Assembly: GCA_035084275.1 (NCBI GenBank)
Contig: CM068749.1
Coordinates: 14,942,001-15,006,000 of the forward strand
Reading direction: 5' to 3'
DNA length: 64,000 nucleotides
From: Hydrolagus colliei
Lineage: Eukaryota
The notes under the pieces were generated by a model. It ran no database searches. It was not told the DNA's origin and saw nothing but the letters and a program-made list of their open reading frames with translations. Shown piece after piece: positions 16,366 through 44,300 of this stretch (the first letter of the stretch is position 1; every line of letters begins with the position of its first letter). The position numbers and the translations under genes are program-made.

Positions 16366-16371
16366 AATAAA
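16366..16371 (+). terminator. Probable LHX8 polyadenylation signal AATAAA
   Basis: First AATAAA seen after the stop codon (~410 nt downstream), followed by GT/T-rich sequence near 16397-16425. Confidence 0.65.
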
Positions 16372-17664: not shown

Positions 17665-17820
17665 ATTGCACAGAGGACTGTTTGTGTGCTGTGCGCAATT
17701 AGCTGCCACGTTTTGCCCACAAATATCGTCAATTCACTTTACAATATACTCTGTGAAGCGCTTTGAGACATCTAGAAGACATGAAAAGTGTTATATCGAA
17801 TGCAAGATTATTATAGAAGT
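17665..17820 (+). mobile_element. 3' fragment of the tRNA-derived SINE family
   Basis: gctgtgcgcaattagctgcc...gtgaagcgctttgagacatctagaagacatgaaaag; near-identical to 20840-20972. Confidence 0.8.
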
Positions 17821-18407
17821 CTACTTTGTCAATTGCACTACTACTTCTACTTAGATGACATCCCTGTACACTGCAGTAGCATAATGGGGATCATCTAAGC
17901 TGAAGAGGCAACGCAGTAGACAAAGTACGATTTATAAGTTAAGACCTGGAACTGACAGCTTCAGCAAGAGATTCTTTTAATACATGTTTGTGATGGAACA
18001 TTTTTGTGATCTTGGAAGAAAGGGCTAACCACCAATTCCCAAACTACTTCATATGTCGGCAAAATTGATTTCCTGTCTTATTTCTATTATTTGATGAAAG
18101 CATGATGTGCAGATAAATTACGTGTGGTATCTATATCATGGTGGCTCTCCATTGGGTTTAGCTTAAACACTCAATGAATAATACTCAACAAGTTGTCACC
18201 ATGTCTTTAATATTGTCTGTTATTGCTAAATTCTGCCATAAATGTGGAATAATTAGCCATTTCTGATATAGTAATAGACTTATGATGACCAAGGAATGAT
18301 TCTAATAGTTTTAATATCAACAGGTTTGTGTCTGGAGGATTGAATTATCCATACTATAATAATTAATTGAACACAATGAGGTGATCGCATTATTCATTAC
18401 CTAAAAC

Positions 18408-18413
18408 TTTATT
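18408..18413 (-). terminator. Candidate SLC44A5 distal polyadenylation signal (AATAAA on -)
   Basis: TTTATT on +, ~1.8 kb past the distal stop. Several other candidate hexamers exist at 19030-19410. Confidence 0.35.
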
Positions 18414-20243
18414 AAATGTAATATTTCAATGTCATATTAATGTTGAATAAAACCCAGTACCAAGAGACATTGTCATTGCAAAGCATTGAGGGACAATACA
18501 TTGCCTGAAATACCAAACATTTAAAAGTTAATTACCAAAAAATTATGGCACTCAGTCAGATTTCTGCACAGCAGAAGCACAGAATAGACATAGCTTCACT
18601 TTTCATGCAAATTACCTTTTGGTGTAATGATAGAAATAATGTCATGTTAATAAATACATAAAATATTTGTAAAATAACACTTCATAAATGAGACATGCAA
18701 ACATGAATTTGATTTATATGTATTTAAATCCAGGTCTAGCTGGTACATAATTGTTCATTCAGTGAATTTTAAATTTATGTTCAGTATTAACCCTTGGCTC
18801 CCAATAATACAACAGCATTTAAAAAATAGCTATATAAACAATATCTTGCATGTCTGTTTTAGAAAAGACTGAAATAAAACTTAATCCATGTTTCCTTGCA
18901 GTATTAAATAAATACCAAGATAACCCCATTCAGTATTTTACTAGGTACAGTTGCTGCAAAGAAAGACACCTTGAACTGATGGATCAGTCCTGATCACTGT
19001 ATGTCATATTATCTTTTACTCTGAGAATAATTTTATTAACGTATGGGTAGTTGTGAAAATGGTACATTTAACATATACAGGCTATTATGTGTAATAAGCA
19101 GCAATTTCTGCTTAATAAATTTATTCCCAATGCAACTTACTTTTCATGTTTATTTCTAAGTTCCTGGTTAAGAGCAAGCTTCTTTTCCTATCGAGCTTTC
19201 ATTTTTCATTCTCATTTTGGTCAATGGTCGGGGGAGAGAAAGAGTAGAATATTTTTGTCCAGGATATTTTGGGTAGAAATGTTTTTCAGTAATGTTTATG
19301 GTTATTATTAAGAAATTTTCTGTAACTGTCACTGAATTAAATGTTATGTTGAATATTATTATTTATACACCTAACTTAAAGCATTGTGCACTGTCAGTGA
19401 AGTGTTTATTAACCATGAAAATGTGACCATCTGAGAATATAGATTCAAGAATTAACTTGCTCTTAACAGGAATTTAGAAAAATTTGTGTTATTCTGAAAC
19501 ACGTTTTTGAAGCGCTTTGACACTCTACCTGGCGTGTAGGGCACTATGTAAGTGCGAGTTATTGTTTTATCTCAAGTCATCTCAAAGTTTTTCTACCCAT
19601 AGGGAATCATTTCAAAAATGCCTTAGCTACTTTTAGCACAAAGTTGAGTCATTTTCAGTCTTGGACACTCTGTCAGTCACTAGTAATACGGCATCCCATC
19701 ATTCTAGACTCGTGACCAACACTGAAGGGAAGGCACTTGAACTGATTATCATCTAGAAATAATATTTTGAAATATCAAATTGGTATTAACATATTGGACA
19801 AATGGCCAAAATCAAATCAGCAATGGTATATATGTTTTATAAAGGAATAGCTCTGCTTTGGGTGACCTTTTGATGCCAATGCAAGTATTTAAATATTGCA
19901 GGCATTATTTCTAATAGTAATTATTTTCAATGGTATTTTCTGTTTTTTGCTAGCTGGAATGTTGTTCAATTTGCTGCCTTTGGGATTGATCACTAGTTTA
20001 TTGAAAGCTTAAAATAGAGTACTTTTCTAGTGACCAATCTATAATGCAATACTAAGTGCATATTTCCATATTCACAGGTCTCCCTGTTTATCACTATGCT
20101 CCCAAATTCTCCAACCATGTCTATTTTTACAAAGCATGGTCACCAAATATTGTTCAGATTCGCTTGACCTTTTAAATTACAATATGGACAACCTAGTATT
20201 TATGCAAACAAGTTGAGGAATGACGTAGTTTTCACCATATTCT

Positions 20244-20347
20244 TCATTCCTCCTTGACTTTATTCTTCTTGTTCAGAATCTTCCTCAATGACTTACTCAT
20301 GAAATAGGGCTTCTCTGGTGAGCCATCATTTCTCTCTAAATCTTCCA
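20244..20347 (-). CDS. SLC44A5: SLC44A5 distal alternative last exon ([34 protein letters not shown])
   Basis: tcatag|TG GAA GAT...GAA TGA; same phase; paralogous to 23888-24000. Confidence 0.92.
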
Positions 20348-23300
20348 CTATGAAGAGGAATTGCAAATGATTATAGGGATCAAAAGCAAGTTAAATAGCT
20401 GGGTCAAGTATTTTAATTTGATGATCAGTGACTTGTTAAATCAGCTTGGCTCTATTTTTCATGGCACATTCTGATATTCCGAGCATCATTGAGTATGAAA
20501 CTTATTATTGGTAATCATACAGCAATTATTATAGATATGTTGGAGGATAATTGACTCATATTTAATTATCGATCCAACAAAATCAATATAATTCATTCGA
20601 TTGTTGATTCTGTTTGGGACAAAAAATACTTTTATTAAAAACCTTGTCTTTTTGTACCTGGAAACTAGATGTTCTGATTTCTGGAGTAGTTTGAGCGCTC
20701 GCCTTGCAAGCGAGAGACCTGGGTTTAAATCCAGGCGGGGCGAAACCTTGGGCAAGTTTCCTTATTCCACATGCCCAACAATAATCCCTCAAAAACAAAA
20801 ACCATTTGTCACTTCAATCCACAACTGTTTGTGGGACACTGCTGTGTGCAATTGGCTGCCGCGTTTCACTCACAAATATAGTCAATTCACTTTACAGTAT
20901 ATTCTGTGAAGTGCTTTGAGACATCTAGAAGACGTGAAAAGCATGTTATCAAATGCAATGATTATTATTATTCTATTTTAAGATCTAATTCCACAAACAA
21001 AGATACAGGCACTAACTTAATTTCCAATTTGCATGTTAAATGCTGACAATTGTTTTTATATTGAAACCAATGTACTGTATATCTCCTTCTGATTTTAATT
21101 CACTGAAGCAAACAATCCAAGTTGAATAAAATGGAAAATACTAATTAATGTCCATATAAAATGTGCTGATGAAAATTTGCTTCTCAAATGCCACCCTGTG
21201 TGAAATAAACAAGGAGCAAAACAGAGATGTCATAAGGACATAAAAAATGATGTTCCGTCCTGGTGTGTAATATTGGAATGCATTTCAGCCCAGCTTCCAA
21301 TTGTATGTATAAATATTGTCTATTATCTTGTATGCTATCAATCATTTAATTGTTATGATGAAGATTAGGGTTTGATTTTTGGTGTTCTCAGTTTCTCACA
21401 TCCCACCTTGTGGATATTATGTTCATATCCCGTTAAGTATATATAAATTTAATTGACTTAAAATAAATTCGTACAACAATTTCTTCTCACCAAACCATCA
21501 GGTCATATCTTATAATACTTGAATGAATTAAATATTTTAAAAGAAAATCTTTTCAGATGTTATTTCACATTAAGTACTCAGAATCAAGCTTGTTTCTGTT
21601 TATATCCCCCCCAAAATGCATGACAGCTAAATGTTCTCTCATCCCTCTAAGATCCTGGACACAACTTGAGATCAGCACATCCCTGCAGGGAAGGAGAGCA
21701 TAAGACAAATAAATGCACTCACATGCCCAAAGAGCTAAATGGCTTAGCTGCTCAAAATCTCTAATACGTGACTCCTGCTGTCCCACTCAGAGCAGAATTG
21801 AAAGACTGGATGAGCTTTTTTAGGTTTGTAATCCCCAAAAGTCAGAAGAGACAAATTACGGCGTAAATGTGAAATACAACCTAAAGAGGAAGACCGTCTC
21901 TGACTATAGGATACTACAGTACTGCCTCTGCTTCTATCTTCACTAACTCACAAAAGAAGTTTAGATGAAGAATGCTATTTGGTCCATTTGATCCTTCCAG
22001 AATAGCAGACCAACCATTGTGCTGTCGTGTGCTGTTTATTTCATGAATAATCATTATAAAGATTCTCTACTTTGTGAAAATTCATGACTATCTTTATTCT
22101 AATGCACATACAGTGATTATATATTCTCACTGAGGTTTGACATACAGTACTGTGCTTTGCTGATGCCTTGCATCAGAAAATGTTGATCCCTTTTGTGGTC
22201 TGTGACAACCTGAAATATTCACCACTTATTAACTAAAGTAGTGCAAAGAATTTTCAAACTTGTGTAGAAAACTATTTTTGACATCCTGCATATAACAGTA
22301 TTCATTTGTTTTTAAATGCATTAGTTGTTGAACAATATTAGCTGATTTGCACTGATGAGATGGGTCTACATTCAGAGCCTCTGGAGCATTATCTACATTG
22401 GGTTAATAAATTCAAATGTGTTTTGATTTTTCTAAAAAAATCAGAATTGGGTTGCGCAAAATTCTCTTGTACATTATTTCTTGATCTTGGTTGCACCCTA
22501 CGAAAGATGAATGAAAGATGATCTGAATTGGATATATCTAATGTCTTTCAGTTTTGAAGTAGCTGCTTTGGCTCCTTTCAGTGTTAATGTTATCTTGAAA
22601 ATCCACACATGACTTAATTGGCCTGCACCAAATAAATCTTGTTTAATATAATTCAAATGAACTAAAATACAGCATGCAGGTCTTAAAGATATATCAACAA
22701 ACCACGGTACCACAATGCCCATTTTATCTAGAATATCTGTAAAATAAGTCAAATATGCAGCACCATAATTACAGCATTAGTATGGTAACCTTTTGTACAA
22801 ACGCCATAGTAAGGAATAACAAAGCTAACTTTTAATTCCTTTGATATTTTTTCTAACATTTATAAAAAGTATCAATGCTAATTAGTAAAAATGCACAAGA
22901 ATAGCCCTGTATTTTTGTGGAAAATAATATACAATAATGTGCATTGTATGAAATCTTCAAATTAACTTACACTACGTTCCTATTAAAGGAACTAATTTCA
23001 ACAATTAATAACAAAGGTTTGCTTAGTACCACTGATGAAATAAATTGGGTAAATGACGTGTTGATAACAAATGGCTTTAGTTTACATTCTGCAGGAATTT
23101 TAATGGCATACTTTACTACCCGAAGCACAATGCAATGTATCTGGACTTAACATCGTGCAGACTACAATGTGGGTAGTACAATCCTTGCTTTACTCTAGGC
23201 ACCTGAACCGTAAAATTCTACTTCGGAGATTGGTGTTTGTTTTGGTGTTTATTGCATATTAGTCTTGTATCAGTATTTGAACTTACTGCCACAATAGAGG

Positions 23301-26300
23301 ACAATTAAAAAGCTTGATAGTGCAGATCGGAACCTGCTTTAGGTACTTGTGTAGCAATACTGCATCAGACAGGTCAAGGACATAGTCCTTCTTTGTAAGG
23401 CCACTGGAGTTCTCACTGAAATGTTTCACCCTCTTGTAACATTTTCCAGTATTATAATTGCCTTGGATACTTGCACTTGATCTGCATCAATAGGCACTGA
23501 GTAAAATAGGAAAACAAAACTATGGAGGAAAGTAGGGAAAAAAAACTATTTATCTGCCCGATAAACTGGTATCAATCTATCTCTCCTACACAGCTTGATG
23601 TATAGAAATGCATGACAAGTGACATCTTGAAGGGTTACACTGTGTACATCCTTATTGCCACTAGCATCATATTGCTGATTTTTTTAAAAACTTATTTTTC
23701 CTAAGGTTTTTTTTTCCAAAAGTAGAACTCTACAACATTTTCCTTGAAGATAACACTTCAAAACAAATGGTGAAAGTCAGGTAACTGACATTCAGCAACT
23801 GACCAGTGACTTTGTTAAAAGATGTTACCATGTTCACACAATCAACAAAAGCAAGACAGAAAGTGCAGCTTGGCGCAGCATAAGCAGCTATCCATTTGCC
23901 TTCTTAGGACTTTGTTCCTTCCTCCCCAGAATTCTGTGTAGTTCAGCTGACATGAAGTAGGGCTTTGCTGCAGAACCATCATTTCTTTCCAAATCTTCAC
24001 CTGGATGCAGCAGCAAGGAGCCAAAGCAAGAGGGTGGAGGGGGTGTGCTCATCGAATCAATTACAATGGAAGGGAAAGAGGAATGAAAGGAAGCACAAGA
24101 AATATGTTAGAAGATTCGGTAGCACGTTTGAAAAAAATATTGCCAGCCTTTTAAGAAACAAAACAAACATAATTCCTGCCAGAATCTACAGAATCTAGTG
24201 AAGCTGGAAGATTACATTTTCACAGCTGGAGATATAGTTCAAGCACAGAAGTATCAAATGCGCAATCAGCATAAATTTAGGCCAGTGAACAATCAGAAAA
24301 GTGGGGAAACAATTTACAGTGTATTCAGGTTTCAATGATTTCAATGCAAAATAAATACTTAATCAGATGTTTGTAAGATAGCAGCTTAAGTTTTCGGTTA
24401 AAAAGTTCAGCACATGTGCAGCAAAGCCATAGAGCTCAAAGTGTTTTAAATTCATACAAAGAAAGCTCTACGATACATGAATAGTGATGATTTTAGAAAG
24501 AAAAACAACTATTGCAATATTTTTAACTGCACTTCAAGCACTCTGGGAAACTCTCTGCCTAAAGGGGTATAAATGCAGGTTGTTGCTGTTGAATAAGACA
24601 AATGGTTATTGTGCAATCGGTCGTACTGCAATGCAAAATACCACAGTTTATTTTATAACCTTAAAACTGCAGCAACTACAATCTTGTGTTTCAAATGTTA
24701 TTTGGACTTTAAATTGAAGTCAATGGGAAGATTGATTTGTGATATTAGTATGAATGATTACATGGGTCATTTTGGATATGAGATTCAGGCATTCAGAAAC
24801 TTGGATATTTCTAAAGAATAATTTGAACAGTGAAGGTTGCTATGGAAGTCTCCCTCAATCAAGGAACATGAGTATATTTACACTTACTCCCATCCTCCTA
24901 GACAACCAATTGAAAGAGAACATGTATGCATTAAAAAGAAACAGGCAAACGCCACGAGATGACACAGCATAATATATATATTTTGATAGATTAGGGGGAG
25001 TGCAGATACTCAAAAAATAAGATTGTAGAAAAACCTGGTGACATGGATCCACCCACTGACATCAGATGCCTACCTTGGTACTTTCACACATTGGAAAAAT
25101 GTAACATTAAAAACAGGTATCACACGTGCATAGAGGGAATCCTGTCCCATTGCCACAATCACCATTCATTTTAACAATCTCTTGCCATTTCTAAACCTCA
25201 AATGATTACATTTTGACAAAAATAAAATGTGTACTAGCTGAATTTCTACCATTTCGTGTTTCAAATTCAGTTTGGCGCTAATGGCTGGACATCAGTGTGT
25301 AATTGTTTAACTGATTTTGTTTAATGAAGCTCACCACCTGCTGGTATCAGAAAATGGGCCAGGTTTCCTCACGTGATGCCTCTTCAGTTAGCATGATTAA
25401 CATTTACAGTGAAGGTATTATTGTATCAAGTAATATCAATACTGTGCTGTAGCTTTTTTAAATGTTGAACAAAATAATAGAACATATTTAATTGTATTTT
25501 TTTTATGAGAGTACCTGTAGTTCTGTATAATTCAATATCATTGCAAGGGTAGACTGATGCTGTGGTTAGATTACAGCAAATCCTTCACATATGCAATATA
25601 TATTATACACTTAGAATCCCACATCCTTTCCAGTGTATTAAAAGTAAAACAGATTTTGATGGTACTGTATTATAGAAAACTAAAATGTTTACTATTTACT
25701 TACAGAAACAGAGGAATAAAGTATCTACACACATTGCATAGACACTGAAGAAACCATGTGCAATTAGATACGATCCAAATATCACAGTCTGCAAACAGAG
25801 GACATATGCATTTCAATCAAGTCAGAGGTCATGGGCAACAATTCGTAAAAGGGCATCTTTAGTTAGATGATTACACATTATTCAACATGGCTCTACTATC
25901 TTTGATCACTCAACTTTTCTACAATTCTACCCACAGACTATTATCTGGTACTTGTCTTGTCATGCAATGTGTGGAATGTGGTTATCTCAGAATATGAGAG
26001 CAAGCTGCTGTTTTTATTTTAATTCCATTTTGCTTGCCTTCAAGGTTAACCAAATCTTAGTTGAAAACAATAATAAAATTGATCTGATCTGATAATTCAT
26101 ACAAAACTAACATTAAAACGGTGGATAAGAATTCAGAATAAAAGAGTTTGGAAGTGTGTGATAGCATTATAAGTGCTAACCAGTTGGGTATGAAGTAAAG
26201 TAAGTTGTGTCAGGGTCACTGGTAACGATGCATTTGTGTAAATAGAATGTAGAAAAAAATCCAAATAGATTCCTTACCACCAAAGGTACCCAATAATAGT

Positions 26301-29300
26301 TTAACATCGGTGCCTCATCTGCAATTATAGTTATTCTGCGTGTGAAGAAGAAAAACGCAAGCACCCCTGTAGACAAGAAATACATCTTACAAATTGCTCA
26401 GGGATTGTAAACATTTAACTGTGTTTGATTTCACCATATTGCAAACATACTTCAGTAAGAGTCAATGTCTTGAGAAAGAGATTACTCACCTACACCTCCA
26501 ACAATCAGGAGTTTCCCCAGGAACAGTAGAAAATCTGTAACTTTATCTAATACTGCCACTCTGTTGAGCAAGAATGAATGTATGTTCAAGAGATTTTTAA
26601 AAAGCATAATTTGGAACTACAGTATTTGGAAAAAATTAAGCTACTTTCCTTGATGTCTTGCATCTGCTCGATTGGTTCAGGCCTCCTGCATGTCCATTGA
26701 GCTCTACGTTTCACTATTAGTGGCCACACTTTAAGCCACTATGTAATACTCTGTAATATTCTTCCTCAATGCCTCTATTTTGCCTCTTCCTTCCCTGATG
26801 AACCTGAAGACCTTCGTCTTTGACCATGCCTATGATCACATCCCCCCTTCCCCCAGGTTCGAAGTTGTGCTCTGTCACTCTCAAATGCCCTGGAACACTA
26901 TCCTGTGTGAGGGGCACTATATAAGTGCAAGCTGTAGTTGTCTTGGCCAACGATCCTCTAGATAAAGTTGGTTATGCAAATCATGACTCTTAGTAGGGCA
27001 TTGCTGAGTACAAATTGTCAGTACTGTACATTATATCCTGCGAAGTGCTTTGAGACATCCTCCCAAAATGAAATACCTAATGTCAGGATTATTATTAATA
27101 ATAACAATCTTGTTTAGATCAACCTTGCATAGTAGAACTATGATTATCCAATCATTTCAATTATTAATTATCGGATAGCCGAGATTCTATCTTATTTTTG
27201 TATTGTGTTTTATAATCTGTGGTAAGATAATGAATATCTAGCTTTGGTACATTTATATATATACATCTATCTAGATATTTATATATATATATACATATAT
27301 ATATCCACAGTAAAACCTCGATAATCAGGCACGGTTGGGGCCACTCATCTCCCAGATTTTGGAGTTTGCTGGTATCTACCCTAGAAATAGCTGGGGAAGC
27401 TCAGCCCCATAGAAGGGAAAAAATGCCTGAGAGCTCAACGAACAGCGCTGGATGACAGAGCAGCCACGCTGGGAACTACAAGCAGCTGTTCCGAACTTCG
27501 GGAGATTTGCCAGACATCGGGAAAAAAATTTATGCTGTTTGTATTTTGAAATTTTGCCGTTTTTTAGGGAGTTGCCGGCTTTAGGAATGTCGGATTGTCA
27601 AGGTTTTACTGTATATGACCACTCACCTGACAACATTCCTCATCAACAAAAAGAAGGCTTCCTTTGCAGACGTGCAGAAGTTTTTACCATATATTGCAAT
27701 CTAGAAAATAAAAATATACAACATAACCAATGTGATGCTATTGCTATCACAGAGTGAAAAGTCTTCTAACAAGTGGTACTATAGATTTCAGTTCCCGAAA
27801 CCAACTTACCATTATATATGCATTTCTATTAAGAAATTTAATGAATCTTTCCAGACACCAAAAACAACATTTCATGCAGCACAGCACAAATTTAGCAAAC
27901 TGGTTGTGGGCACCTGCAAGTGGAGAAACATATAATGAATGGTAGTCATAAGACAAAAGAAAATACATTTAATATAAATTCAACAGCACATTTTAACTCA
28001 TTTGCCCCAGACAATTATCTGCCAATTTGCAAACAACAAAATACTTTACATTCCTGCTCATAATAAGTAAACACTGTCGCTCGAAAATATACAATAATGT
28101 GAAAAATATTTTAGAAGCAGTAAGAAATAATTCCTTGTTTTCACACTTTCCCATGATGGACCCAATAGCCCTTTTTTCATCTTTTCATCAAAATTCAACA
28201 GAGACAACACAAGACAAGAATTGTAACTTGCCAAAGCAACAAGAGATAAGAGTTTGATCACCCAAGTTTGATCCTAGCGGCAGGAGAAACAAACTGCTCC
28301 TTATGCTCAAAATTGACATTGGTAAAAGGACAATACAAGTCTACTTAGTAAAGCTTGGCATCAGTGAAACTTGGTGCAAAGCCCATAGAGCAAAACTCGG
28401 TGAACCTGAATGACTGACAATATGAATGAAGGCTGCAAGACGTTGGTATTTATTGTTGTATTACCCACCACTGCTTAGGAATGTATGTTATTGGTTATGA
28501 CTCAATCTTATGTTTCTCTAATTACTTTATAATCTCTTCAAGTTTTGCTCTTTCTGATTCATTATCTCATCTGAAGTTTGCCTAGAATATTGCTGGTGTA
28601 AAGCGCTACTATTGTATACATTTTGTAACCTACAGAATTACATACTACTACACATAGAAATAATAAAGAGATAATTAACCGTCTTTTTAATTCAAGGAAA
28701 ATATTCACTTGAGAATACAGTTGACTCACATTTGATAAATCAGTCACATTCATCATGTCCAATCAGTTGATACTCTATCACTACTAACAGACTCATCAAC
28801 TTCACCTATTAATAATACAGACTAGCCAACAAGTAGTCACAGACTCACTTGTTTACTTTTCATTCACAGTCGGCAAAGAGTGACTTTGCAAAGACTCACC
28901 TTTCAGTTTATTATCCAGGTATTCTAAAATGATTCTTATAAATTGTACAATTGCAAGAATTAAAGAGCCAAAAGCCAATGAACCTGTGTGGTACCTAGGA
29001 ATAATGAGTGACAAACAGAAGTCATTAGTTACAAGGTACAAATAAATATTAGAGTGATCAAATGCAAGTAACAAAATGTGGATTGGAGTATTCATGCTAC
29101 AAGTTGTTCCAGTCACTTTTTAAAAACATATGAGCAAATGCTGCCATCTACTGACACAATAACATATAACTGACTGTAAATTGTTTAGCCTCATACCAGA
29201 AAGTAACTGATCTCTAGGACACTAACTGTAGTGCCCTGTGTGAGTCCTTCCATCACTTTTATTTGTATTCATTCCCTCTTAGAAATTCTTATACAGTTCA

Positions 29301-32300
29301 ATGACCATGAGTCTAGCAGGTAATGAAGGTGGCAGTGAAGTGAAGGGAAGAAAACCGTCAAGGTAGTCATTCTTCGCAGATTTTAAATACTTGTTGGCTG
29401 ATTGGAGAACAACAAATCATGTAATAAATGCAGAGATATGAAAACTTCCTATTCCCCCACCCACTCCCTGCAGAGGCAGCTTGCAGTGAGAAATGTAAGT
29501 GGAATAGAATGATAACAAGTAACCCGAATTGTCCTTGTTCTTACCTCAGTGTACGGCCAAATGACGCAAGCAGAGGGAATGCTGGTATATCAGCTGGCTT
29601 CTTAAAGGCCCAGTAATAGGAGGCAAAGGCACCAGCCAACGTGCACTGTCCCAATGCAATTGCAAAGTTCACAAGCCACAAGAAGACAACAAGATTGCAG
29701 ATTTGAAGGACAAGGATGTATTTGTGGTAAATGCTCTCTCCGCCATAGAAAGCGAATGAACACTGAGCACCCCGGCATACTTTGCTGACATTGGTCAAAT
29801 TAAATGTCTAGTGAAAAAGAGAACATGCAGTCAGGCTTCTTGCAAATGAAACACAAGACAATTGAGAATTCTACGTAGCCACCAGAAACTTTCCAGTTAA
29901 CAAAAAGTTATACTGGGAATATTGCAAGTGTATATTAGTGAAGCATGATGAATAAGGTTTTTTTTTGATGATGCAACAAAGCGCAAAATGCACAGTTCAT
30001 AAAATGATAGTCTGGCAATCATGGAATCTTCATGAAGTAATTCTCTCTTTTTCCACTTTCCTGACATTATGTTATAAATACGATTCTTCTTCAAAATAGT
30101 AACGGGTATATCTATTATTTATGCAGCAGATTGGACAGTGCCTCTCTGATACGGCATTTCCATTCTCAAAATAGGACTTTAATTTGTTACCGCTGTCATG
30201 TGAAGTGCAGATAGATCAAATCTGTTATTCATGACACATTCATTCCATGAGGTCTGCTAGAATGCATTCCAACAAATATAGTCAGGTATGTGTCTAAAGA
30301 ATCATGTTCAATGTAGATTCCTTTTATCACTACATGTTTGAAAGCTTACCTCAGGATTGCATGTTTTGTTTGCATATATACAGTTGCCTTCGTTAGCCAT
30401 CACTTTGTATACTGATTCACCAGACGTTGATAGGAATCTGCATGTTCGATGTTAAGATATATTTTATCATTCATACTGTAACACAAACTGTCAACATAGT
30501 TTTATGTTTCAAAGTATTGTAGAACTTTGTAAGACAGACATAGTGCCACAGACCATTTGAAAAATGAAATAAATACAGTATGTCTGTAAAGTTGTAGTGC
30601 CCCATTGCCAATAATAATTCTTGCATTGGCTAATTAGTGTTGCCTTATAAATTTGGAAGATAATGTTTAACACCCATTGCAATTACTTTTAAGAATACAT
30701 GTGTGCTGTGGGACCATTCATATTATCATTGCTTTAATTCTGTGATTCAAATGCATGATTGTGACCTAAAATGGTCATACAGATCGCTGGAAACTGGCAG
30801 CCTTGTGTTTTTCCACTTGCAGTACTATATACTGTAATAATATATCAGTTATCAACACTTTAGGCTTTTGTCAAAGGATACATAGATGTGACTGCCCAGT
30901 AGGAAATACAGATTGCTAGGAGTACAAAGGTGATGATAGGGTAGAATAGTGTCGACATGATATATCCTATGGCCCTGATGGGAAAAAAAAGCAAAACAAT
31001 CATAACACTTAATATTATTGCATTCCGCTAAATCATTGAAACAATCTTTAATAAGTTATTTTAATAAAACATAATGTAGACATTTGGACTCTATTTGTAA
31101 ATGCCCCATAGAGTATCCACATATAGAACCAGGGAATCTCACAGCACAGAAGGAAGCCATTCGGCCCATCGTGCTTGTGTCAACTCTTTGAAAGAGCCAA
31201 CAACTATTCCCATTCCCCTGCTTTTGCCCCATAACCCTTCCTTTTTTTCCCTTTTGAAAGCTATTATTGAATTGGCTTCCACCACCCTTTTAGCAGTACA
31301 TTGCATTTGAACATAGGCACATAAGTAGGCCATTCAGCCCGTCGAGCCTGTTCCGCCATTTAATTAGATCATAGATGATCTGTACCTCTACTGATCCTTT
31401 CAATTCCAATTTCCCGCTTTCTCCTTGAATCCCTTAATATCCTGACCATCCAAAAATTTATCAACCTCACTGTTCAAGGTGTGGATCGATCCAGCCTCTA
31501 CGATTTTTGGGGGGAGAGAAATCCAGATTTCTCCCACCCTTTGAGTGAAAAAATGCTTCCTGATTTCACTCTTAAATGGCCTGGTTCTAATTTTAAGACT
31601 ATGACTAATACTATGCACCTCTGTAACTACACAAGAAAATCCTATTTTGTGTAAAATGTCTTTTCAGTTGTCAAATAACTAATGTAAAGTACAAACATGG
31701 CCCCTAACTGTAGCAGTGATGCACCACAGCCTTTAAGAGAAACGTTTGTGAATGGGACCAAAAATAATCTTACATACAGGACCAACTCCAGCTATAATAC
31801 AAAGTGCAATGGTCACTTACTTGCTCCCTTCCCTGAGGAGTGCAATTGCAATAAAAATTCTTTTTCTTAGGAAAACCAGCATCAGTATGATGATCACTTC
31901 AATAATGCAGAGAATAATCACTGAAAAATACCATAGCTGCATTTTAGAAACGAGAAATATAAACATGTACTTTAATATAATTATGATTTAATGATGTTAT
32001 AAGTGGGCGGCCAGCATGCACCTAAACCATTATTTTCTCTCTTTGCCGGAATCCTGTAAAACTGTAGAAAGACTGCATTTGTGAGTTGCTCTCAATTTTT
32101 CCTTCTGATCTATGGTACGCACATGTAGTTTCTGCCTCTCTCCAATGGTACAGTGGAGATCATAAACACAGTATGGAATCAGAGCAGCATCTTCACATTC
32201 CTTCCACTCTGTTGGTTGACAGTTCACAACTGTGCTTATGTAAAACGTAGGTGAAAAGCTAAGATTCTGTATTGCTATATTTTTCTTGGTGGAGCTCCAT

Positions 32301-35300
32301 TTGATGTCTTGACTAGAAATATAATTTTTTTTCAGCCTTTTCCCACATTAGAATATCATTATCATATATTCCTGTTGCTACTTTGGCAGTGGCAGCTAAA
32401 CTAACAGCTTCCAATTTAATTCTGTAACAGGCAGGATTTAGATCTGTGATGCTACAAGAAGATGAGGTGACTATTGATGCACTGCTACTTTTCTACTAAT
32501 CTAAGGAAGCCATGTGTGCACGCAGGATGGATGGGATGGTTCACCATAAATTCATTCTGCGAGTAACAATCTTTCCAAGACACTTTTAGACTTACTAAAC
32601 GCCAGCCACGTCTGTCTGAGCTGCAGATAGACCCTGAAATCTGTCTGGAAACCAATGTCATAGATAGCAACATCTGCTCCAGGCTTCCCTTTGAGGCTGC
32701 TATATTCCCAGTAACAGTGCCAGATACCTGCAAGAGAAAGTAAAGGCGGGATGAAACACAACTGCTCCATGCGCCATTTGGGTAATTTTACTGTTTTATG
32801 TGTAAACTTGTTGGCAATTTGTGGTATGATAGTCCTGTGATTTTAATGGGGCATTGATTTGTAATGAATATGCTTTGGTTCCACATCAACAACAATAACA
32901 ACAACAAAATTACACTTGTATGGCGCCTTTCACGTCAGGAGGATGTCCCAAGGCACTGGACAGTCATTGTTTCTGACCCGAGCTGGAGTCATGGATGGGG
33001 AGGGTGGAGGGAAGGAGAGGGGGGGATTTAGGGTGACCGATGGGACTGTCGAAGAGGAGGATCGAGGCGGGACTTGAAGGAGGCCAGGGAGGGGGTGAGG
33101 GGAGGGACTGCGGGATGGAGTTCTAGAGGTTGGGGGCAGAGTGGCTGAAAGCTCGCCTGCCAATGTTGAGGCGGGTGAGTCAGGTGACGTGAAGCAGGCC
33201 GGAACCTGCTGAATGGAGGGGGCAGACAGGTTGGTAGGAGTTCGCAGAGGTAGGGTGGGGCGAGGCCATGGAGGGCTGTGAATGTGAGGACCAGGATCTT
33301 GAATTGGATCCTTTGGGTTCTGGGGAGCCAATGGAATCAGGTGAGGATGGGGGAGATGGGGATCACGATGCTTGGACCACAAGAAGCATATCAGTAGACA
33401 TGTTACTGAGAGTAATTCACTCATGTTCCAATTCATTCAGACATGGATATGAAAAGCTTCCCCTACCCAGCGTGGAGTGCGTTATATAAGTGCAAGTTAT
33501 TCTTATTGTTGGGTATAGATCACCTAAAAAAGATCTGATGAATGATACTCTACCCCTTCAGCAGGTAGCTGATGGATACAGCCGAGGGAAAATGTAATCG
33601 AAAAGATTATTTAAAAGGAGTCTTACATCATCAGTCAACAGTAGCCAACAATTCCAGTAGGGAAGAATACTATGTATTACTGAAGATAACATGACCCTTC
33701 TGAATGAGTTATGAGTTCAATGGTACAAACTGACAAATTACCTTTCTGCCAATGAATGATGCCATTTTCTTAGTAATAGCGAAGGAAAAGGATGAGGAAA
33801 TTTGGTAAAATTTTGATACGGGCTCATTCCCCCACCCCCTCCCACCAACTCCCCCCAAATTAAAATCTAACTTAAATTTGCAATTTGTTGTTACTTACTG
33901 GATAATATTGTGCACAAAGATATTTCCCAATACCAACAGAGAGAAGACTGATAAAACAGCAACACAAACCTTGCAGAAGTATTGTACTGCATGAAAGAGT
34001 CTGAGATTTATAGAAGCTTAGGATTTGTGTACTATGCCATATGCCAAAGGTGAAACTATATTTAAGAGACCAAGTCAATTCACACCATTTATGCAAAGCA
34101 CCAGTATGTCTTCTGAGGTCAGATCGCTTGCTTGGTGGGAGATAATGATAATGATTTGTAGTTTTGTAGATTCTACAAATTGTAGATTTGTAAAGAAACT
34201 TTACAACTTCTCAAATTCAGCTCATTCACGAGAACCAAAAACAGCGCTCACCATTGCATTGTATTGGAGCTCGGAGTTGCAGTTTGGTGGAGGAAGCAAA
34301 TTTTCCATACGGAGAGCTTCACTGGATGAATTTATTTTTATGCCATGTTTTTCCCCATTCTGGAGGCACCATGGGGTGTCAACACCTCTTCATTACTTAC
34401 TACCCTTGCTATCTTCATTTGTTTATGATTATAGGTACTTTGGTTTCCTCAGTGTGTATTTCCACATGCTCTATTTTAACATTTCCAATATTGAGTTGCA
34501 TATAGTAATAATGATATACACTTTTGGACATTACATTAGCTGCAGAGTGCCATGCTCCTTTTCATGCTACAGTCTCCCAAGATTTTTCTAATTGATTGTC
34601 ATTAACTATAGATACTATTTTGAATGTACTTTCAGCACAACATCTTAATAGGAACATTGAACCCTGCAAGCAGAAATGCACCAATGCTGTAATTGCCGTA
34701 CGTGCACAGATTATTGGGCAGTGCTGTGTAACCACTCATTCATACAGTTCTGTTGATCAGACCACCACAGTTTCCAGTGAGGAGCTGAATTTCAGCATCT
34801 TGTCTTAAATAAGTTATTGCAGCTTCACCTCCTGAGACAAATTCTGGATGTCTTTCTGGGAAATGAACCCCAGGATTCTAAATATAAAAAAACAATTGGG
34901 CTCCAGAAAATAACTGTTTTGCTTGGGATTATTGATAAGGATCAGTAGAGCGCTGGTTAGAATAATCCCATGGCATCTGTTTCCCTACAAATAAAATCAC
35001 CACAATTGACAGTACTGTAGTTCCCTGTGAAGCATTTTCAGGCATTTCATATTTATATTAAATGTAGGGATTAATATTATTTGATGATCATATTAGCTAA
35101 CAAAGCCTAAGACAGGGCATCAGACAAGACCACCAACTAAAAGGCAAACCTATTTAATCAATGAGAAATCTCAGTTGTTAGCTGCACAAGTTACAGAATG
35201 GTATTGCTCTATTCAGTCTATTGTGGGAAATAAATAAAAGCAATGTATTCTCTATTTTGTCTCAAAGCTTCACATTGCACTGAGTCACGTTGTTCCACTG

Positions 35301-38300
35301 TATTTGGTTTGTGCTGCAATCATACTGCACACTTGGTGGCAAATTGTCACAGTTTGGGGCAGAAATGCACTCTCCAATCAACCGCGCAGTATTAAATGGA
35401 AGGTGAGCCAACACAAATTGTGCTGGAATTATTCTCCCACATCATCTGGAAGTGTTGGTATCAGGATCGGTGCAAAGTAAAACTGACAGTACTAAATTGT
35501 CTTGGGCTCACTTCTGATTTTGACCATCACATGCATGGTCTCAGAACAATCAACAGGCTCTTTATTAACTTAATAAAAGTATTGATCAAAGTAACAAGCT
35601 CTTTAATCCCACTAAAACCTAAGACCACAATTCGCTGTTATGTGCATTCACCAACATCTCAAAATTAGGTGTTTTTCTTTTCATTCAATCTGATGTACAG
35701 AATGGAGTATAAATCAATATATAGTTACTGACAAAGGGTCGTGGACCCGAAACGTTGATTCCCTTTCCCCATAGATGCTGCCTGACCTGCTGAGTTTTTG
35801 TCCCCATGGTTACTTTGGTTACTACCACGTCATAATTTTTCTGAATGCACAAGAGGGTTTTGCCACTTTTTCAGTGTTCTCTATTGCCGTCGAAAGATTT
35901 CTATACTGCCTGTTCTTTCCCAAGAATATAGACATGGAGTGAGCGTTTCAGAAATCTTGCAGAATATCGCTACTTAAATGTTAAATTTTCAAAACTAGGA
36001 TACAGGTGCTGTTAGCCATTATCTAATTATAACAGGACGTTACAGCTGTCTTTTCTGTTGCAACTCTCAAATTGGCCATCAAGTTAATTTAGTAATAGAA
36101 GCTAATGTTCAAATGACAAAAATGCTTGCCAGTAAATCATTTTGATAATTGGTCAATTAGCCGTCATGGTAAGAAGGATTATTCAGTGCCCTCACCTTTC
36201 ACTGGCTGTACCGCTTTTAATTGTAACTGGTAGCTGAATTTTGACATTTTCCTTTGTTGCATGGAGTGTTATTACAAGATGGTGAAAACTGATTTGAAGC
36301 ACATTTTTAAATGCATTCAGCCTCCTTTGACACACAAGGTTATTATCATGAGACATAAAGCAGCAGAGCTAATGACAGCACACACTGAAATATGGATGGA
36401 GGTCATCACGGTTTATCAAAATTTTAAAGTTTATAAAAATAACCTTTATTTAATTGTTAAACAATGAAATCAAATGTCAGGTAAAACTCTTAAACTCTAA
36501 TCTACCCTACACCCAATGTCATTTGCAATTCGTCCACCCTCATAAAACATAAAAACACAGAAATCCACCTCTCCACCACCTGTTCACAAGTACAGTGGAT
36601 ACAATCTGTCATCTCCACACTCACAAGGACTTGGCTGTTAACTGGCAGGAAACTGGAACTGGGTTGCCTTAAAAAAAACGTTTCCATCAAATTAAATGCT
36701 AATTGCATCTAGACTAATTCTTTTTGATGTACCCTGTGTATTTTTTTTGAAAAAGATACAACGTATGTCAGCCTGATACTTCAAACCTCTGAGTCAGAAG
36801 ATTACGGATTTTAGCCCTTATGGGTGTTAGCACTTTAAGTTCACAAAGTCAACTAAACCGACACTCCTGGGGAGTACTGCATTGTCAGAGGTGTCGTCCT
36901 TTAGTGTGAGACCGAACATTTCCTGTTTGAATGGATCTTAAAAATCTCATGGCACTGTTTAAAAAGAAAAGAGAATTTCTCCCAATGGTGTCTTGGCCAA
37001 CAATCTCCTGACAAAACTGGTCATTCATTTCATGACTGTTTGTGGGACAATGCGGAGTGCAAACTAGGGAATGATTTCTCTGTTTCAATAGGGCCACCTG
37101 TCTCACTGCTAAAACATTGTTTCTCACTTACTGTCTTCGTCTTGTAGTCTGTGATAATATCTGTCATTTTTCAGAACCAGCATATTCTGGCATCTGCACA
37201 ATTTGAATTGCCAATTAAAATAGATTTGCTGTACACAATTTTTTTTACATTAGCCCTTTTAATTATACAGCAACCTCTGATTTAATGAATAATACTTCTG
37301 TCTTTCCAACAGGGAAAGCATGTACAAGCTTTTGCAATACATCCCAGCAGATGGGGCTAGTCTAATTTCAATTACATTCACATAATGTGTACACTCAATA
37401 CACAATGCAACTGTAACACAGACAAGGAAATAATACTTACCATAGCCTATCACCCCAACTACTGCAAAGATCACAAACCAGAATAATACGCCAGCTGTAA
37501 ACCGCAGGAGTAGGATGAACACCAGGCTCACAACCATTGCAATGACCAACCCACTATAAATAAAAAATGATGTTAATTACAGATACACTGAAAGGAACCT
37601 AATTATGTTCACCTCCAGTTGCATTGTCACTTAAGATGAGGTGTTTAGTTCATCACATTGTAACAGACGTCTGATGGTCACACATTAACACTTCATAACA
37701 GAGGTCAATTGGCACATTTTATAACACTGCAAGAGAAGCACCATGTGCATACCTTATCACGTTCTAGTATAAAGATATGTGCACTTCTTGGATTGTAAAT
37801 AGAAGCCAATGGTCAGTCATTTGCAACCGCAAATTATGAGAAACCGATAGATGCCTATTGCAACTTCAAATTATTAGATTTAAATTCACTTGGTTCAGCA
37901 AAAAAGGAGCCCTTCCCGGAAGCGTCATAACCTGATCATGCGTATTCATTCAATATGTTATCCACTAAAACAGTGAACTGGCTTTCTGAGTACTGTGTTT
38001 GTACATTTTAATATATTCTAGCTGGATTTCTATTTGTATGCTCGCAGGTTAATGTGTTTCTTGATATTTATTTGAAAGGGGAAAGAGAGTAATTGATTCT
38101 CAGTTTGTTGTTGTATTACACCTCCTCCTCCTCTCTGCTATGTAATGTAAAACTTTTGTTCAGTTACCTGATGAACACTTCCACCAAATTCCACCAATAT
38201 GTAGCACAGCAGGCCAATAATACTGTACTTAATGCTTAATAGCTAAATTTGATAGCATGATATGCATGAAAACAATCCTGCCTATACAGCAGTATGTGAA

Positions 38301-41300
38301 TTTGAACCCTCAGTCCTTCTGTCTTAGAAAGACAGAATATCATCAAGAGTTCCTGCTGGTTATGTCAATCCAGCAAATTGATGCAACTGAGACATGTGTG
38401 GATGTGCAGTGAGGGCAAGATGCTTGCCAATTAGGCTTATGCATTAAAAAGGGACACTATGACAATATATCACAGTGTGGCCCTGGAACTCGATGACTGC
38501 ACAAAAAAATTAAAAGCAATATTGTGTATCATCCTCTTTTGTATTTTGACCGCTGATTGCAATAGTAAATGCTTTGAAATGGGCACTTACTGCACTTAAA
38601 CAAACGATTTTCTGCATTTCTGCTGTAACTATTCTAAACCTATACTTACATTAAAATCCAGAACCAGGAGTTAGTATAGTCTTCAAAAATCTTCATTCCA
38701 ACCTCTCTCGCATCAAGAACATCATTTATGCCACTGTAACAAATTCAATCATATTACTGCCTATTTTGTATTCATAGTAATTACTACTGATTCAGCACAG
38801 CAACTTATTTCAGACTATTGCAAGAGAAGTTAATAATGTCACACCGGATTAGAAGCAATGCATTTAGCATTACCACGATAAGTACAATACATTACATCTC
38901 ACAGAAGTAAATTACTGTCATTTAAAAAATAGACTGGTAGTGAGTTGTTTGTAATACATTTCAACAACGTTTGCCAGTTAAGAACATAATTCTTTGCTGA
39001 AATAATCAGATATCACAAAGTTGAAGGATATGATATCACACTAGCCCTTCCACATGTAGAAAGTTCCCAGCCTGACTTATGCCACTGGATAGAAACATTG
39101 ACTAGAGACAGATGCTTCCCCAGAGGAAGATAAAGAAGATTTGGGGAGAAAGGTATTGTTAACATGCCAGTGAATCTCGTGGCTGCCCTTTGAGTTAAAT
39201 GTGATGTTTGATGTACGACAAAGAGGAGCTTAAAGCAAATAAAAAAATCTGTTGCACTAAAAATGAATAAGGAAATTTGAAGAATAAACAATAAAAAATG
39301 ATGTAGTTACTAATTACCCTGTAGGTGATATAATTGCAGTTTTTACCTCTTGTAAAATTGAAAGCAATATTTATCATCTGTATTACAACAACAACTTTGA
39401 TTTATATAGTGCCCCCCATGCCGGACGGCGTCTCAGAGCACTTAGAGTATTAGTTATCCTCTTTTTATCGTTTCAACTATTTGTTTCTAAGTCATAATTT
39501 TTATATAGAATCTCTGCCCTTTCATCATTTCTGAAACAGAGGGTTGCTACTGTTCTCTTTGTAATTGTTATGCTGATGATCACAACCGCTGACTAATAAT
39601 GGTGTAGGGACCATAGAAGTTCTGAAAAGATGGGATTAATTGAAATTTTGAAATCTTGATAGAATGTAAAATCAATGTAAGAAACTAATTAGGATTAACT
39701 TTGTAATATCAGAAATCTAAGAAGATTTTCAATTCACGTTGAGTGTTTGTGACTGAATTTGAAAAATCTTGTGAAGAAGTTTGAACAAATGGGATTGGAT
39801 TTGAGAAACCATCAACATATGTTATCCTCTCCCATATTAGGAATTCATCAAATTTGCAGCAGACACTTGTTCTCTTCTGAGTAAATATTACACTCTTTAC
39901 TTCTGTCATGCACAATCGTAGTAAAATAACTAGCAGATGTAATGTGTCTGCAGAAGCCATGTATAGAAGATGGTGTCAAGGAAACAGAAGGCATAATGCT
40001 CAAGACAATAGCTTAATAGTAAAATTTCTGGGAGCAATAACTGCTTTCTGGAAAGAAATGCAAGATGCAACACAACAGGTGTTAGTAAAGCATTTCCTGT
40101 CCCATATGACTGTCTACTCAGTTGGAATTTAAAATGCAAAACAAAAGCTGGCATCTCTAAAACGAACACCATATAATAACCATAAAACACAAAATATTAA
40201 ATTTGGAATAGTTGTCTTGTGTTGCATGTTATTACCAAGAGCAGCCTGCAGGCTGGTGCTGTCTATCTAGGGCTCCAAATGCACAATGCAGGGCAATACA
40301 CATTTTAATGACTTTTTAATCACGACTTTCATATCTTTTGCATGAAAATGCTGCACATAAATCTCAATTGAAGAGATGAAAGGCCTAAGGTTCCACAAAT
40401 CTTATCTTGTGACAACATTCTGTTTTAAAATTGAAGAAGATCGGAATTGTGGAAAGTTCTGTGAAAACTATCTGGCTTTCAAATAAGACTACATTAAAAA
40501 ATATTCCACAATTGTGGAAAATCGCATTAATAAAATTTTGAGAGTATTGCTCGAGTCCAGCGCTTTGTTCTTTGACAACAATAGATCATAAGCAAAATTC
40601 TTTCTTTGAAAGGAAATGAGAAGAATGGATGCCTTCCAGTGTTCCCATGGTTTCAAATGAGAGAATGCATCTCTAGGTGTGAACCACTAAGAACACAATA
40701 AGGTGAAAGGGAAAAATATCTGATTGCTGAGATATTAATAATAATCTATGCATTTGATATAGTGCTTTACATGTCTTCTAGATGTCTCAAAGCGCTTCAC
40801 AGAATATACTATAAAGTGAACTGACTGTATATTTGTGTGTGGTACTACATGGCAGCCAATTGCGCCCAACCGTGTCTCACAAGCAGTCATGGATTGAAAT
40901 GACCAATTTTTTGGAGGGATTATTATCAGGCACGTGGAGTATGGAAACTTGCCCAAGGTTTCACCCTGCCAGGAAATGAACCCAAGCCTCCTGCTTGTGA
41001 GGCGAGTGCTCTAACCACTGAGGTACAGGACTCGACATATTCTTTAACAGGGAGCCAGTGAACATAAGCATATAAGAATAAGAAGCAGGAGTAGGCCATT
41101 CGGTTCCTCGAGCCTGCCCCGCCATTCAATAAGATCACGGCTGATCTTCTAATCTAACTCCATCTGCCCGCCTTATCCCCGTGTCCCTTAATCCCTCTAT
41201 CCATAAGAAATCTATCAATTTCAGTCTTGAATATGCCTTTTGGGGTAGAGAATTTCACAAATTCACTACCCTCCAAGTGTTTACTCAATTCTGTTCGAAA

Positions 41301-44300
41301 AGGGTGCCCCTTAATCTTAAAACTGTGAACCCTAGTTATAGATTCTCCTACCAGGGGAAACACTCTCCCACTGTCTACTCTGTCATGCCCCTTAAGAAAC
41401 TTATAGGTTTCCATAAAATAACCTCTAATTCTTCTATATTCTAGAGAATATAGGCCTAGTTTACTCAATCTTCATGGGTCATACCCCTCATCCCCGGAAC
41501 CAACCTAGTGAATCTACACTGCACCCCTTCTAAGGCGAGCACGTCCTTTCTTAAATAAGGAGACCAAAACTGCGCACAACATTCTAGGTGCGGTCTTACC
41601 AAGGTCCTGTACAGTTACATTAAGACTTTTCTACTCTTGTAATTCTAACACCAACATGCAATTAGCCTTCCTAGTTGCATGCTGTACCTGCAAACTAACT
41701 TTTTGCGTTTGGTGTACCAGGACATCCAAATCCATCTGATCACTAACACTATCTGGTGTTTCCGCTTCTAGAAAATTCCATCTGCCGCCTTCTTGCCCAT
41801 TCACCTGGCCTATCTATATATCGTTGCATTCTTTTTGTGTCATCCTCGGAACTTTCTCTCCCACCTAGCTTTGTATCATCCGCGAATTTAGATATTTTAA
41901 GTTCTATGTCCTCATCTAGATCATTGATATAGATTGTAAATAGTTGAGGCCTAAGCACTGATCCTTGTGGCATATATTCGTTAGCCAATCTTCAATCCAT
42001 GCTAATATAGCATGGATATTAAAGGGCCCATGCCTTTAATTCCATGGGCCCTAATCTTGTGTAGCGACCTTTTATGTGGCACCTTTCGAATGCCTTTTAA
42101 AAATCTAAATACACTACATCTACTGGTTCCCCGCTATCTAACCTGCTAATTACATCTTCAAAAAACTCTAAAAGATTTGTTAAGCATGACTTCCCCTTTG
42201 TAAAGTCATGTTGACTGCATCTAATCATGCAATGTTCTTCTAAGCACCACTATGATGTCCTTAATTGAGGATCCTAGAATTTTCCCTACCACCGATGTCA
42301 GATTAACAGGTCTATCATGCCCAGACAAGCATTCACTGAAATCAGGCAAGAACTGGGTGAAGGAGTTCAGAGCCTGACATGGGCAAGGACAGCAGATCAT
42401 CAGGAAAAGTCATAAATGATGAGTAGGATAGCACCAGACTCCAAGAGGACTTAGATAGATTGGTAAAATGGGCAGAAACGTGGCAGATGAGATTACTAAT
42501 AATTGTCAAGCATAAGGATACCTGAGTGGATCTAAAAGTATTTGATTTAATTTTAAATAAACCAATCACTTTGGAAATCATTTAGCACAAACTTTCAGGA
42601 AATAACACTTCAAGTGTATAAAGAATTGGTTGAATGTGAGGAATGTGAAAGTCACATAGAGCAATACAAAGGATTATCCTCTCAAACAGCAGAATAGCTA
42701 GCTCAGATTGATGAATAGTTTGTTTTCTTACTGCTATAAGCAGTGTGGAGTAATGCTACCTGCTCCCTACCATTTTCTGAGTGAAGAAACTAGCTCTTTA
42801 TTAACATCATAAGTGAATTGTTGAAAATTCCTGGGTGGCCCGTTAGCTTGCCCAATTGGCCACTATTTATGTGTGAAAATTGACAGTGAGTGCTGGCAGG
42901 GTATTCAACCACAGTGGGGCTTAACTGCCAAGCCTGTTCTCTCCAGAGGTTCACACATTTGTCAATTGATCAGTACAGAGCAGTGAATAGCAATTAGCAG
43001 AATTTGGTTCTTTCCCTCATCCGCTAAACCCAACACTGAGGCTGATTGTAGGCCAAATACTGCCCCAAATGAGATCAGGTGATGCATTTTAAGTGATCAC
43101 TTTTGAATGCAGCCCAAATTGAATCACACCACCTGTGTTTAGAGTTCAGTTTTGCTAAAGGGTGTCTAGCTTGTATCGTCTCCTTCAGACACCCAGACTG
43201 CAACAGAAATCACCTGTAATATGTTTTTTTTTGTGTGGCCATTTGATGTTGTTTTGTGCAATTTTGCAATGGTATGCCCACCTCTGTTGTTGGCCAGTTT
43301 CCAGGAAGATCGCCACTGCTCAACTTTTTTTTAAAAAAATTCAATTTCCTTGGGAGCAGTAAGAGCATCAAAAGTAATTGTTTTCCTTAGGTGTAAATGA
43401 AGACTCAAAGGACATCTCAAAAGAATTGATGCATCATAAGAAATTCTCTTTGAAATAATGGAGCAAAGCAGGTTTGGGTTACAAAGTTGTTCTGCCAAAC
43501 TGAGGATATTGATTGTAAAACCATATGGAAGCTGGATTTAATTGTTATATTGACCATTTACTTACACATATTTTAAAAATTCCACTCGAAGATGAGTGGT
43601 GTGATAATATTTGATGGGTAATAAATCAATGGCTGACCTTACAACTTTAACTACTGACTGGAATATAAAATCATTTGTTTAGTCTTCAGGGATTGAAAAT
43701 CTCAGCAATATTGTTGCCTGGTTGACGATATTCTTATCTGTGATGAAAATTAGCATGTGCATTCCTTGGTATCAGAATCAGCTTTGATAAGTGTTTCTGT
43801 TGTGGCTGCAAAACTAATAACAAATTATTAAATAAACTACATGAGCTGATGGTATCAATCGGTCCACAATTTCTGTGCTCATACTTTTCTTAATGAGCCA
43901 GTCAGTTATGCACAGCAATAGATTGGCTTTATTTTGCAGATTTTTTTAAAAAAAACTGACCATCACATCAGATTCAATTTGAAATGATCATCACATCAAA
44001 TTCTAATCCGTTTCATAATCTGAAGCAAACTAAGAGTGACTGAAACCATCAAGATGGTAAAATGGGATGTGAATGTGGAACCTTGCATTTTCATACAGCT
44101 CATGGATAAAAATGATAGGCTATTAACTCTCCCTAAGCTGGTTATTCCAATGTCTACTTTGGGTTGCTTTAGAACGTCTGGAAACACTATGAGTATCATA
44201 ATAAGAATATGAGCATAAAGTGTCCACCTTTATGCTCCACCTTTACTACATCACTCTAACACCACCTAATCATTTTCACAATTAGGGCATCAGGCAGGGA

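What the first reader, a model, noticed from the sequence alone, without database searches (positions are those of the whole stretch)
20244..24000. SLC44A5 has two paralogous, mutually exclusive last exons from an ancient exon duplication
Seen: two intact exons 3.5 kb apart, both in phase with the penultimate exon, encode [37 protein letters not shown] and [34 protein letters not shown]. The [15 protein letters not shown] motif is conserved despite many synonymous changes, which implies selection on both. As recalled, human SLC44A5 has [10 protein letters not shown].. and [10 protein letters not shown].. isoforms, which would date the duplication to the jawed-vertebrate ancestor. Each isoform gets a different C-terminal tail and 3'UTR.
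Basis: partly seen in the sequence, partly recalled or inferred. Interest (0 to 1): 0.7.

Follow-up and report, generated by a model that had tools for sequence, protein, structure and literature searches.

The report
Known twin last exons of SLC44A5
A chimaera (ghost shark) gene for the membrane protein SLC44A5 carries two old, intact copies of its final exon that likely give the protein two different tails, an arrangement already published for human SLC44A5 and SLC44A2, so it is real but ordinary.

Summary
Real, correctly read and already published. On the minus strand the penultimate exon (25788-25704) is in frame with both exon A (acceptor 24000, C-type tail) and exon B (20347, L-type tail). 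The gene is SLC44A5 of a Callorhinchus-like chimaera. Both tails are annotated across jawed vertebrates. The SLC44A2-like locus of the same genome has the same pair in the same order; in the SLC44A4-like locus only the L-type was found. Exons cluster by position, not by species: C-type exons of A5 and A2 form one side of the tree (97/82). Tunicate and amphioxus proteins carry the L-type, so exon B is likely ancestral. Abascal et al. 2015 (PMC4494069, Table 2) already list these SLC44A2/SLC44A5 3-prime homologous exons. The two splice junctions were not seen directly in RNA here, and what the tails do is untested.

The parts
25704..25788 (-). Penultimate SLC44A5 exon (most of the last membrane helix); shared phase-1 donor GTAAGT at 25703
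   Evidence: Pfam PF04515 positions 295-321 of 326; spliced RNA-like contigs of runs X1 and X2 end exactly at 25704
23888..24000 (-). Proximal last exon A, coding part (C-type tail; likely the derived copy)
   Evidence: groups with C-type exons of other SLC44A5 and SLC44A2 genes
20244..20347 (-). Distal last exon B, coding part (L-type tail; likely the ancestral form, shared with SLC44A4 and invertebrates)
22035..23887 (-). Candidate 3'UTR of exon A; AATAAA hexamers at 23253, 22098 and 22040 (true end not mapped)
   Evidence: motif scan only
19032..20243 (-). Candidate 3'UTR of exon B; AATAAA hexamers at 20002, 19410, 19154, 19125 and 19037 (true end not mapped)
   Evidence: motif scan only
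26278..59166 (-). Upstream SLC44A5 coding exons, 18 located with AG and GT borders; a further 5' coding exon lies beyond the window end (L006)
   Evidence: tblastn; border check
24883..24909 (-). Site of a minor third, non-homologous terminal exon spliced in a related species; in this window its acceptor reads CAA, so it is likely unusable
   Evidence: joint 25704-24909 in run X2; acceptor letters

Best explanation
SLC44A5 here has two intact homologous last exons behind one shared splice donor, and transcripts likely end in one or the other, giving one membrane core with either of two cytoplasmic tails. Shown: the anatomy, the open frames, purifying selection, and the same pair in SLC44A2. 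Inferred: the choice is a competition between splicing to the proximal acceptor (24000) with polyadenylation before exon B, and skipping to the distal acceptor (20347). Inferred: exon B is the ancestral exon, and exon A arose once by tandem duplication in the common ancestor of SLC44A2 and SLC44A5, likely after SLC44A4 split off. Predicted from a fold: the exon encodes the cytosolic end of the last helix, a conserved loop, a short helix and a flexible tail. Both versions keep the structural part and differ in the short helix and the free tail. The most likely function, untested, is isoform-specific trafficking or regulation (Leu to Cys next to the membrane, a Ser-Pro-basic motif, tail charge) rather than a change in the core.
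For: Anatomy and dN much lower than dS. Orthology: upstream-exon hits are CTL5 records, the C. milii proxy sits in the A5 clade (100/99) and A2+A5 are sisters (98/97). Both tails are annotated within one species in 19 of 22 hand-picked record sets, from C. milii to frogs. Full-length proteins on record from Logan contigs carry the L-type (P0055, P0099, P0170) or C-type (P0155) tail. Own genome: C41 (A2-like) has C then L about 1 kb apart; C38 (A4-like) has L only within the 30 kb fetched. SLC44A2 records: 55 C-type and 29 L-type among 84 distinct tails from 120 proteins. Exon tree without the diagnostic first residue: all 16 C-type rows against 22 others, 97/82. L-type in 26 of 27 SLC44A4, 14 of 15 tunicate and 7 of 7 amphioxus records, with no C-type exon among them. 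Spliced contigs of runs X1 and X2 stop exactly at the donor, and X2 shows more than one continuation there. Model: helix to residue 684, helix 697-703, low-confidence tail. Published: PMC4494069 Table 2 and supplement row 85.
Against: Neither junction (25704-24000, 25704-20347) was displayed in any run laid, so use of both exons in this animal is inferred. The exon alignment has only 29 columns. A tree that holds A5 C+L together, as independent duplications would give, is not rejected (p-AU 0.26). A profile trained on A5 assigns only 20 of 38 A2 C-type exons to the C class, and one trained on A2 assigns 11 of 48 A5 L-type exons to C. The C41 C-type exon goes out of frame after about 21 codons, in a locus with a gap and other indels. 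A5 and A2 C-type tails differ in charge (+3.6 against -3.8) and in the Ser-Pro motif (18 of 41 against 0 of 55), so no shared tail function is evident. Abascal's supplement lists no peptides for human SLC44A5 and loss of the pair in fugu. No lamprey sequence was obtained, and the one hagfish protein is unplaced.
Confidence: 0.88

Rival explanations
1. The last exon was duplicated twice independently, once in SLC44A2 and once in SLC44A5, and the C-type copies look alike by convergence.
For: A5 C+L as one clade is not rejected (p-AU 0.26); cross-classification of A2 C-type exons is weak, 20 of 38; the distal tails of A2-C and A5-C differ strongly.
Against: The order (C proximal, L distal) and the split codon are the same in both genes; the best tree joins all C-type exons at 97/82; A2 and A5 are sister paralogs; His at position 22 occurs in 100% of A5-C and 44% of A2-C exons and is not among the two commonest residues of any L class.
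Confidence: 0.07
2. One of the two exons is a silent, unspliced remnant in this species and only one isoform is made.
For: No junction to either exon was displayed in the runs laid; the pair was lost in fugu, and all 5 marsupial records carry only the C-type.
Against: Both frames, acceptors and stops are intact while the flanks have diverged beyond recognition; each exon is within 1-2 residues of the C. milii annotated isoforms, and exon A is 93% identical to sturgeon over 29 columns; both tails are annotated in sharks and rays.
Confidence: 0.04
3. The second copy is an assembly artefact or a recent local duplication.
For: None found.
Against: The exons are only 65-70% identical in DNA with saturated synonymous sites; DNA-like run X4 covers both regions with near-identical long contigs; both copies have orthologues across jawed vertebrates.
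Confidence: 0.01

Closest known systems
Human SLC44A5 and SLC44A2 mutually exclusive homologous 3' exons (Abascal, Tress, Valencia 2015, PMC4494069, Table 2; supplement row 85)
   Same: [quoted passage not shown]
   Different: That study used five species and no cartilaginous fish, and found no lamprey hit. In the sections and row read it does not say which exon is ancestral or mention SLC44A4. The chimaera locus adds a cartilaginous-fish data point and the polarity (L ancestral, C derived).
RefSeq and UniRef CTL5 isoforms of Callorhinchus milii, Heterodontus, Stegostoma and Pristis
   Same: Both tails are already annotated as alternative isoforms; the C. milii tails differ from the window's by 2 residues (A) and 1 residue (B).
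   Different: Only small sequence differences; the window is a close relative or another allele.
SLC44A4 and invertebrate CTL2/4/5 pro-orthologues
   Same: They end in the L-type exon with the same [14 protein letters not shown] core and Asn at position 29.
   Different: No C-type exon in the 27 A4, 15 tunicate and 7 amphioxus records examined, nor in the 30 kb fetched around the A4-like locus.
SLC44A1/CTL1 (PDB 7WWB, 9QU3)
   Same: The last-exon region aligns with the CTL1 segment after the last membrane helix.
   Different: A distant paralog; whether it has a homologous exon pair was not tested.

Membership tests
SLC44/CTL family | Pfam PF04515 Choline_transpo domain | tested here: met
   window exons hit PF04515 above the cut-off; C. 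milii proxy E=1.6e-112
SLC44A5 orthologue | Groups with CTL5, apart from CTL2 and CTL4 | tested here: met
   named best hits are CTL5; the proxy P0122 (near-identical to the window by tblastn of its cluster mates) falls in the A5 clade 100/99
SLC44A5 orthologue | Convergent LHX8 neighbour (human synteny recalled) | tested here: inconclusive
   LIM-homeobox exons on the + strand 9370-14640; the name LHX8 and the human synteny are recalled, not from a call
Mutually exclusive homologous (tandem duplicated) exons | Two homologous exons in tandem, same phase, both intact | tested here: met
Mutually exclusive homologous (tandem duplicated) exons | Orthologous exons cluster by position across species | tested here: met
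   C-type split 97/82; window A+B clade rejected, p-AU 0.034; 29 columns only
Alternative last exons | Each exon is spliced to the shared donor in mRNA of this species | tested here: inconclusive
   contigs branch at the donor but neither junction was displayed; annotated and Logan-derived proteins of other species carry each tail
Alternative last exons | Each exon has its own polyadenylation site | not testable with these tools
   only AATAAA candidates in AT-rich DNA; contigs cannot show ends
Choline transporter (function) | Transports choline | not testable with these tools
   disputed for the family: PMC13160678 passages suggest a non-transport role

The most novel reading that the evidence does not exclude
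One exon duplication in the ancestor of SLC44A2 and SLC44A5 created a lipid-sensing switch kept for over 400 million years. The swapped short helix lies where CTL1 contacts phosphatidylinositol at its dimer interface: CTL1 E627 aligns with Gly in exon A and Asn in exon B. The two tails would then tune inner-leaflet lipid binding, dimerisation and targeting of a family now thought to organise membranes rather than carry choline.
Probability: 0.15. Interest if true: 0.5.

Novelty: already known. Interest (0 to 1): 0.15.

Why it matters
As a discovery it matters little: the exon pair is catalogued for human SLC44A2/A5 and annotated in shark and chimaera gene sets. It adds a cartilaginous-fish confirmation and a direction of evolution (L-type ancestral, C-type new in the A2/A5 lineage). 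It also offers a natural tail-swap experiment for a poorly understood family whose transport role is disputed.

Tried and rejected
RNA: no RNA holder listed on record; three 'RNA?' runs of a related organism from one study and one untyped run were laid. Exons A and B had little or no cover in them, which proves nothing because of the human-likeness filter, and a high-copy repeat at about 20570-21000 swamped the joint table. Contig depths (70, 18.8, 11.7 at the donor) were not used to rank isoforms. PDB searches with single exons found nothing; the alignment search found CTL1 and PNS1 only. Rfam over 15000-27000: 0 hits. A conserved di-lysine ER-retrieval signal was rejected: 0 of 41 A5 C-type and 6 of 56 A5 L-type tails fit, although the window's exon B does. 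A C-type exon in SLC44A4 was sought; the one candidate (P0552) proved to be marsupial SLC44A5. No lamprey protein surfaced, and these list only top hits. A weak second hit on C16 (E 0.18-3.5) was not followed. Literature: 10 searches found no functional comparison of the two tails; Kommareddi 2010, Nair 2016 and Beyer 2011 on SLC44A2 isoforms are not held and may contain one. Supplement file 1 of PMC4494069 could not be searched, and the supplements of the CTL1 preprint were not seen.

Full report
Observation. The minus strand carries a multi-exon gene whose penultimate exon (25788-25704) ends in phase 1 at a GTAAGT donor. Two downstream exons fit it. Exon A has its acceptor at 24000 and its stop at 23890-23888; exon B has its acceptor at 20347 and its stop at 20246-20244. 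A profile scan of all six frames finds no third homologous copy in the window. The copies are old: 16 of the first 20 residues match, pS is 0.79 against pN 0.18, and the flanks are no more alike than shuffles.

Identity. An upstream exon is 100% identical to Callorhinchus milii UniRef records, and the other named top hits are CTL5 apart from unnamed models. The last exons differ from C. milii by 2 and 1 residues, so the animal is C. milii or a close relative. Nineteen coding exons with AG and GT borders were located from 59166 to 25704. In a whole-protein tree without the last exon, the C. milii proxy falls in the SLC44A5 clade (100/99); A2 and A5 are sisters (98/97) with A4 outside. A LIM-homeobox gene lies convergently on the plus strand; calling it LHX8 and syntenic with human is recalled.

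Distribution. Among 220 CTL5 records, 18 had no typed tail; the rest gave 100 distinct tails, 44 C-type and 56 L-type. Both types occur in one species in 19 of 22 hand-picked record sets, covering chimaera, sharks, a sawfish, bichirs, sturgeons, teleosts, coelacanth and frogs. One unnamed gene model runs through both exons in the order C then L (P0236). A human record has the C-type tail (P0248); the human L-type was not retrieved. The 120 SLC44A2 records gave 55 C-type and 29 L-type distinct tails. In the own genome the A2-like locus on C41 has C then L about 1 kb apart, and the A4-like locus on C38 shows L only in the 30 kb fetched; these two paralog labels are inferred from exon sequence and structure, not from a tree. 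L-type tails were found in 26 of 27 named SLC44A4 records (from only four clusters), 14 of 15 tunicate and 7 of 7 amphioxus records. The exceptions are one truncated model and one odd Ciona model. The single hagfish protein is L-type and unplaced among the paralogs.

History. With the diagnostic first residue removed, a 29-column tree of 38 exons puts all 16 C-type exons of A5 and A2 on one side (97/82). It rejects the window's A+B as a clade (p-AU 0.034) but does not reject A5 C+L as a clade (p-AU 0.26). Profile cross-classification agrees in part. A5-trained, 20 of 38 A2-C and 0 of 23 A2-L exons scored as C; A2-trained, 27 of 29 A5-C and 11 of 48 A5-L scored as C. Three mis-modelled records and tails under 27 residues were dropped first. 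The simplest reading is one tandem duplication on the A2+A5 stem, with exon B ancestral.

Expression. In two RNA-like runs of a related species (one study), spliced contigs bridge the upstream intron and end exactly at 25704. Run X2 shows short continuations beginning with different letters, one of which joins a site at 24909. That fits a branch to exon B, exon A and a minor third exon, but the letters of the A and B junctions were not displayed, so this is inference. Full-length proteins with either tail are on record from Logan contigs of other vertebrates, those that are Logan-only being about 2.4 kb long.

Mechanism. Each exon ends in its own stop codon and is followed by candidate AATAAA signals. 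The choice is most likely an ordinary alternative-last-exon decision, coupling acceptor choice with polyadenylation (established knowledge; not shown here). An AlphaFold model of the shark C-type isoform (mean pLDDT 78.7) runs the last helix to residue 684, then a loop, a helix at 697-703 and a low-confidence tail. The conserved first half of the exon is thus likely structural and also aligns with CTL1, which explains why a whole-exon copy was needed to vary the tail. The differences are Leu against Cys at the membrane edge, the short helix, a Ser/Thr-Pro-basic motif (18 of 41 A5-C against 3 of 56 A5-L tails) and charge. I put the function at isoform-specific trafficking or regulation, untested. 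A preprint passage names CTL1 E627 as a phosphatidylinositol contact at the dimer interface (10.64898/2026.10.02.755950, passages); by my count on the alignment it matches the residue just after the swapped helix. PMC13160678 (passages) questions choline transport by this family.

Prior knowledge. Abascal et al. 2015 (PMC4494069; abstract, sections 4 and 8 in full, further passages and one supplement row read) list 'SLC44A2, SLC44A5 ... [quoted passage not shown] For SLC44A5 the supplement gives origin in jawed vertebrates, conserved in gar, zebrafish and coelacanth, lost in fugu, no lamprey hit, no peptides. PMC7612411 and PMC7253179 were read in passages only, for references. Three papers on SLC44A2 isoforms could not be opened.

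Verdict. A real, well-read, published feature. Novelty: already known. Interest 0.15.

Noticed in passing
window 24909 (minus strand): A related species splices the shared donor to a third, non-homologous terminal exon here (run X2, one contig); the window has CAA instead of an AG acceptor, so it looks lineage-specific or cryptic.
   Followed up: partly
window 9370-14640 (+): LIM-homeobox gene exons (LIM domain), convergent with SLC44A5; likely LHX8 (name recalled).
   Followed up: partly
L001 4400-7300 (G000 C41): The SLC44A2-like locus has a 200-N gap where its middle exons should be and indels in exons; its C-type last exon leaves frame after about 21 codons, likely assembly error but possibly decay.
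   Followed up: partly
window 20570-21000: Very high-copy short repeat between exons A and B, with similar copies in the C41 locus.
   Followed up: no
window 41000-42400 (minus strand): Broken reverse-transcriptase-like retroelement remnant in an SLC44A5 intron (frames seen; label recalled).
   Followed up: no
window 22555-22906: An intronic or 3'UTR stretch downstream of exon A is about 94% conserved in a contig of RNA-like run X1; could be a long exon-A UTR, pre-mRNA or DNA.
   Followed up: no
L004 (G000 C38, near 5172800): A frame resembling a PRY/SPRY (B30.2) domain lies about 11 kb beyond the SLC44A4-like gene (label recalled).
   Followed up: no
protein records P0552, P0602-P0605; bird records: Marsupial (5 of 5) and listed bird SLC44A5 records show only the C-type tail, hinting at loss or low use of the L-type exon in some amniotes; sampling is thin.
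   Followed up: no
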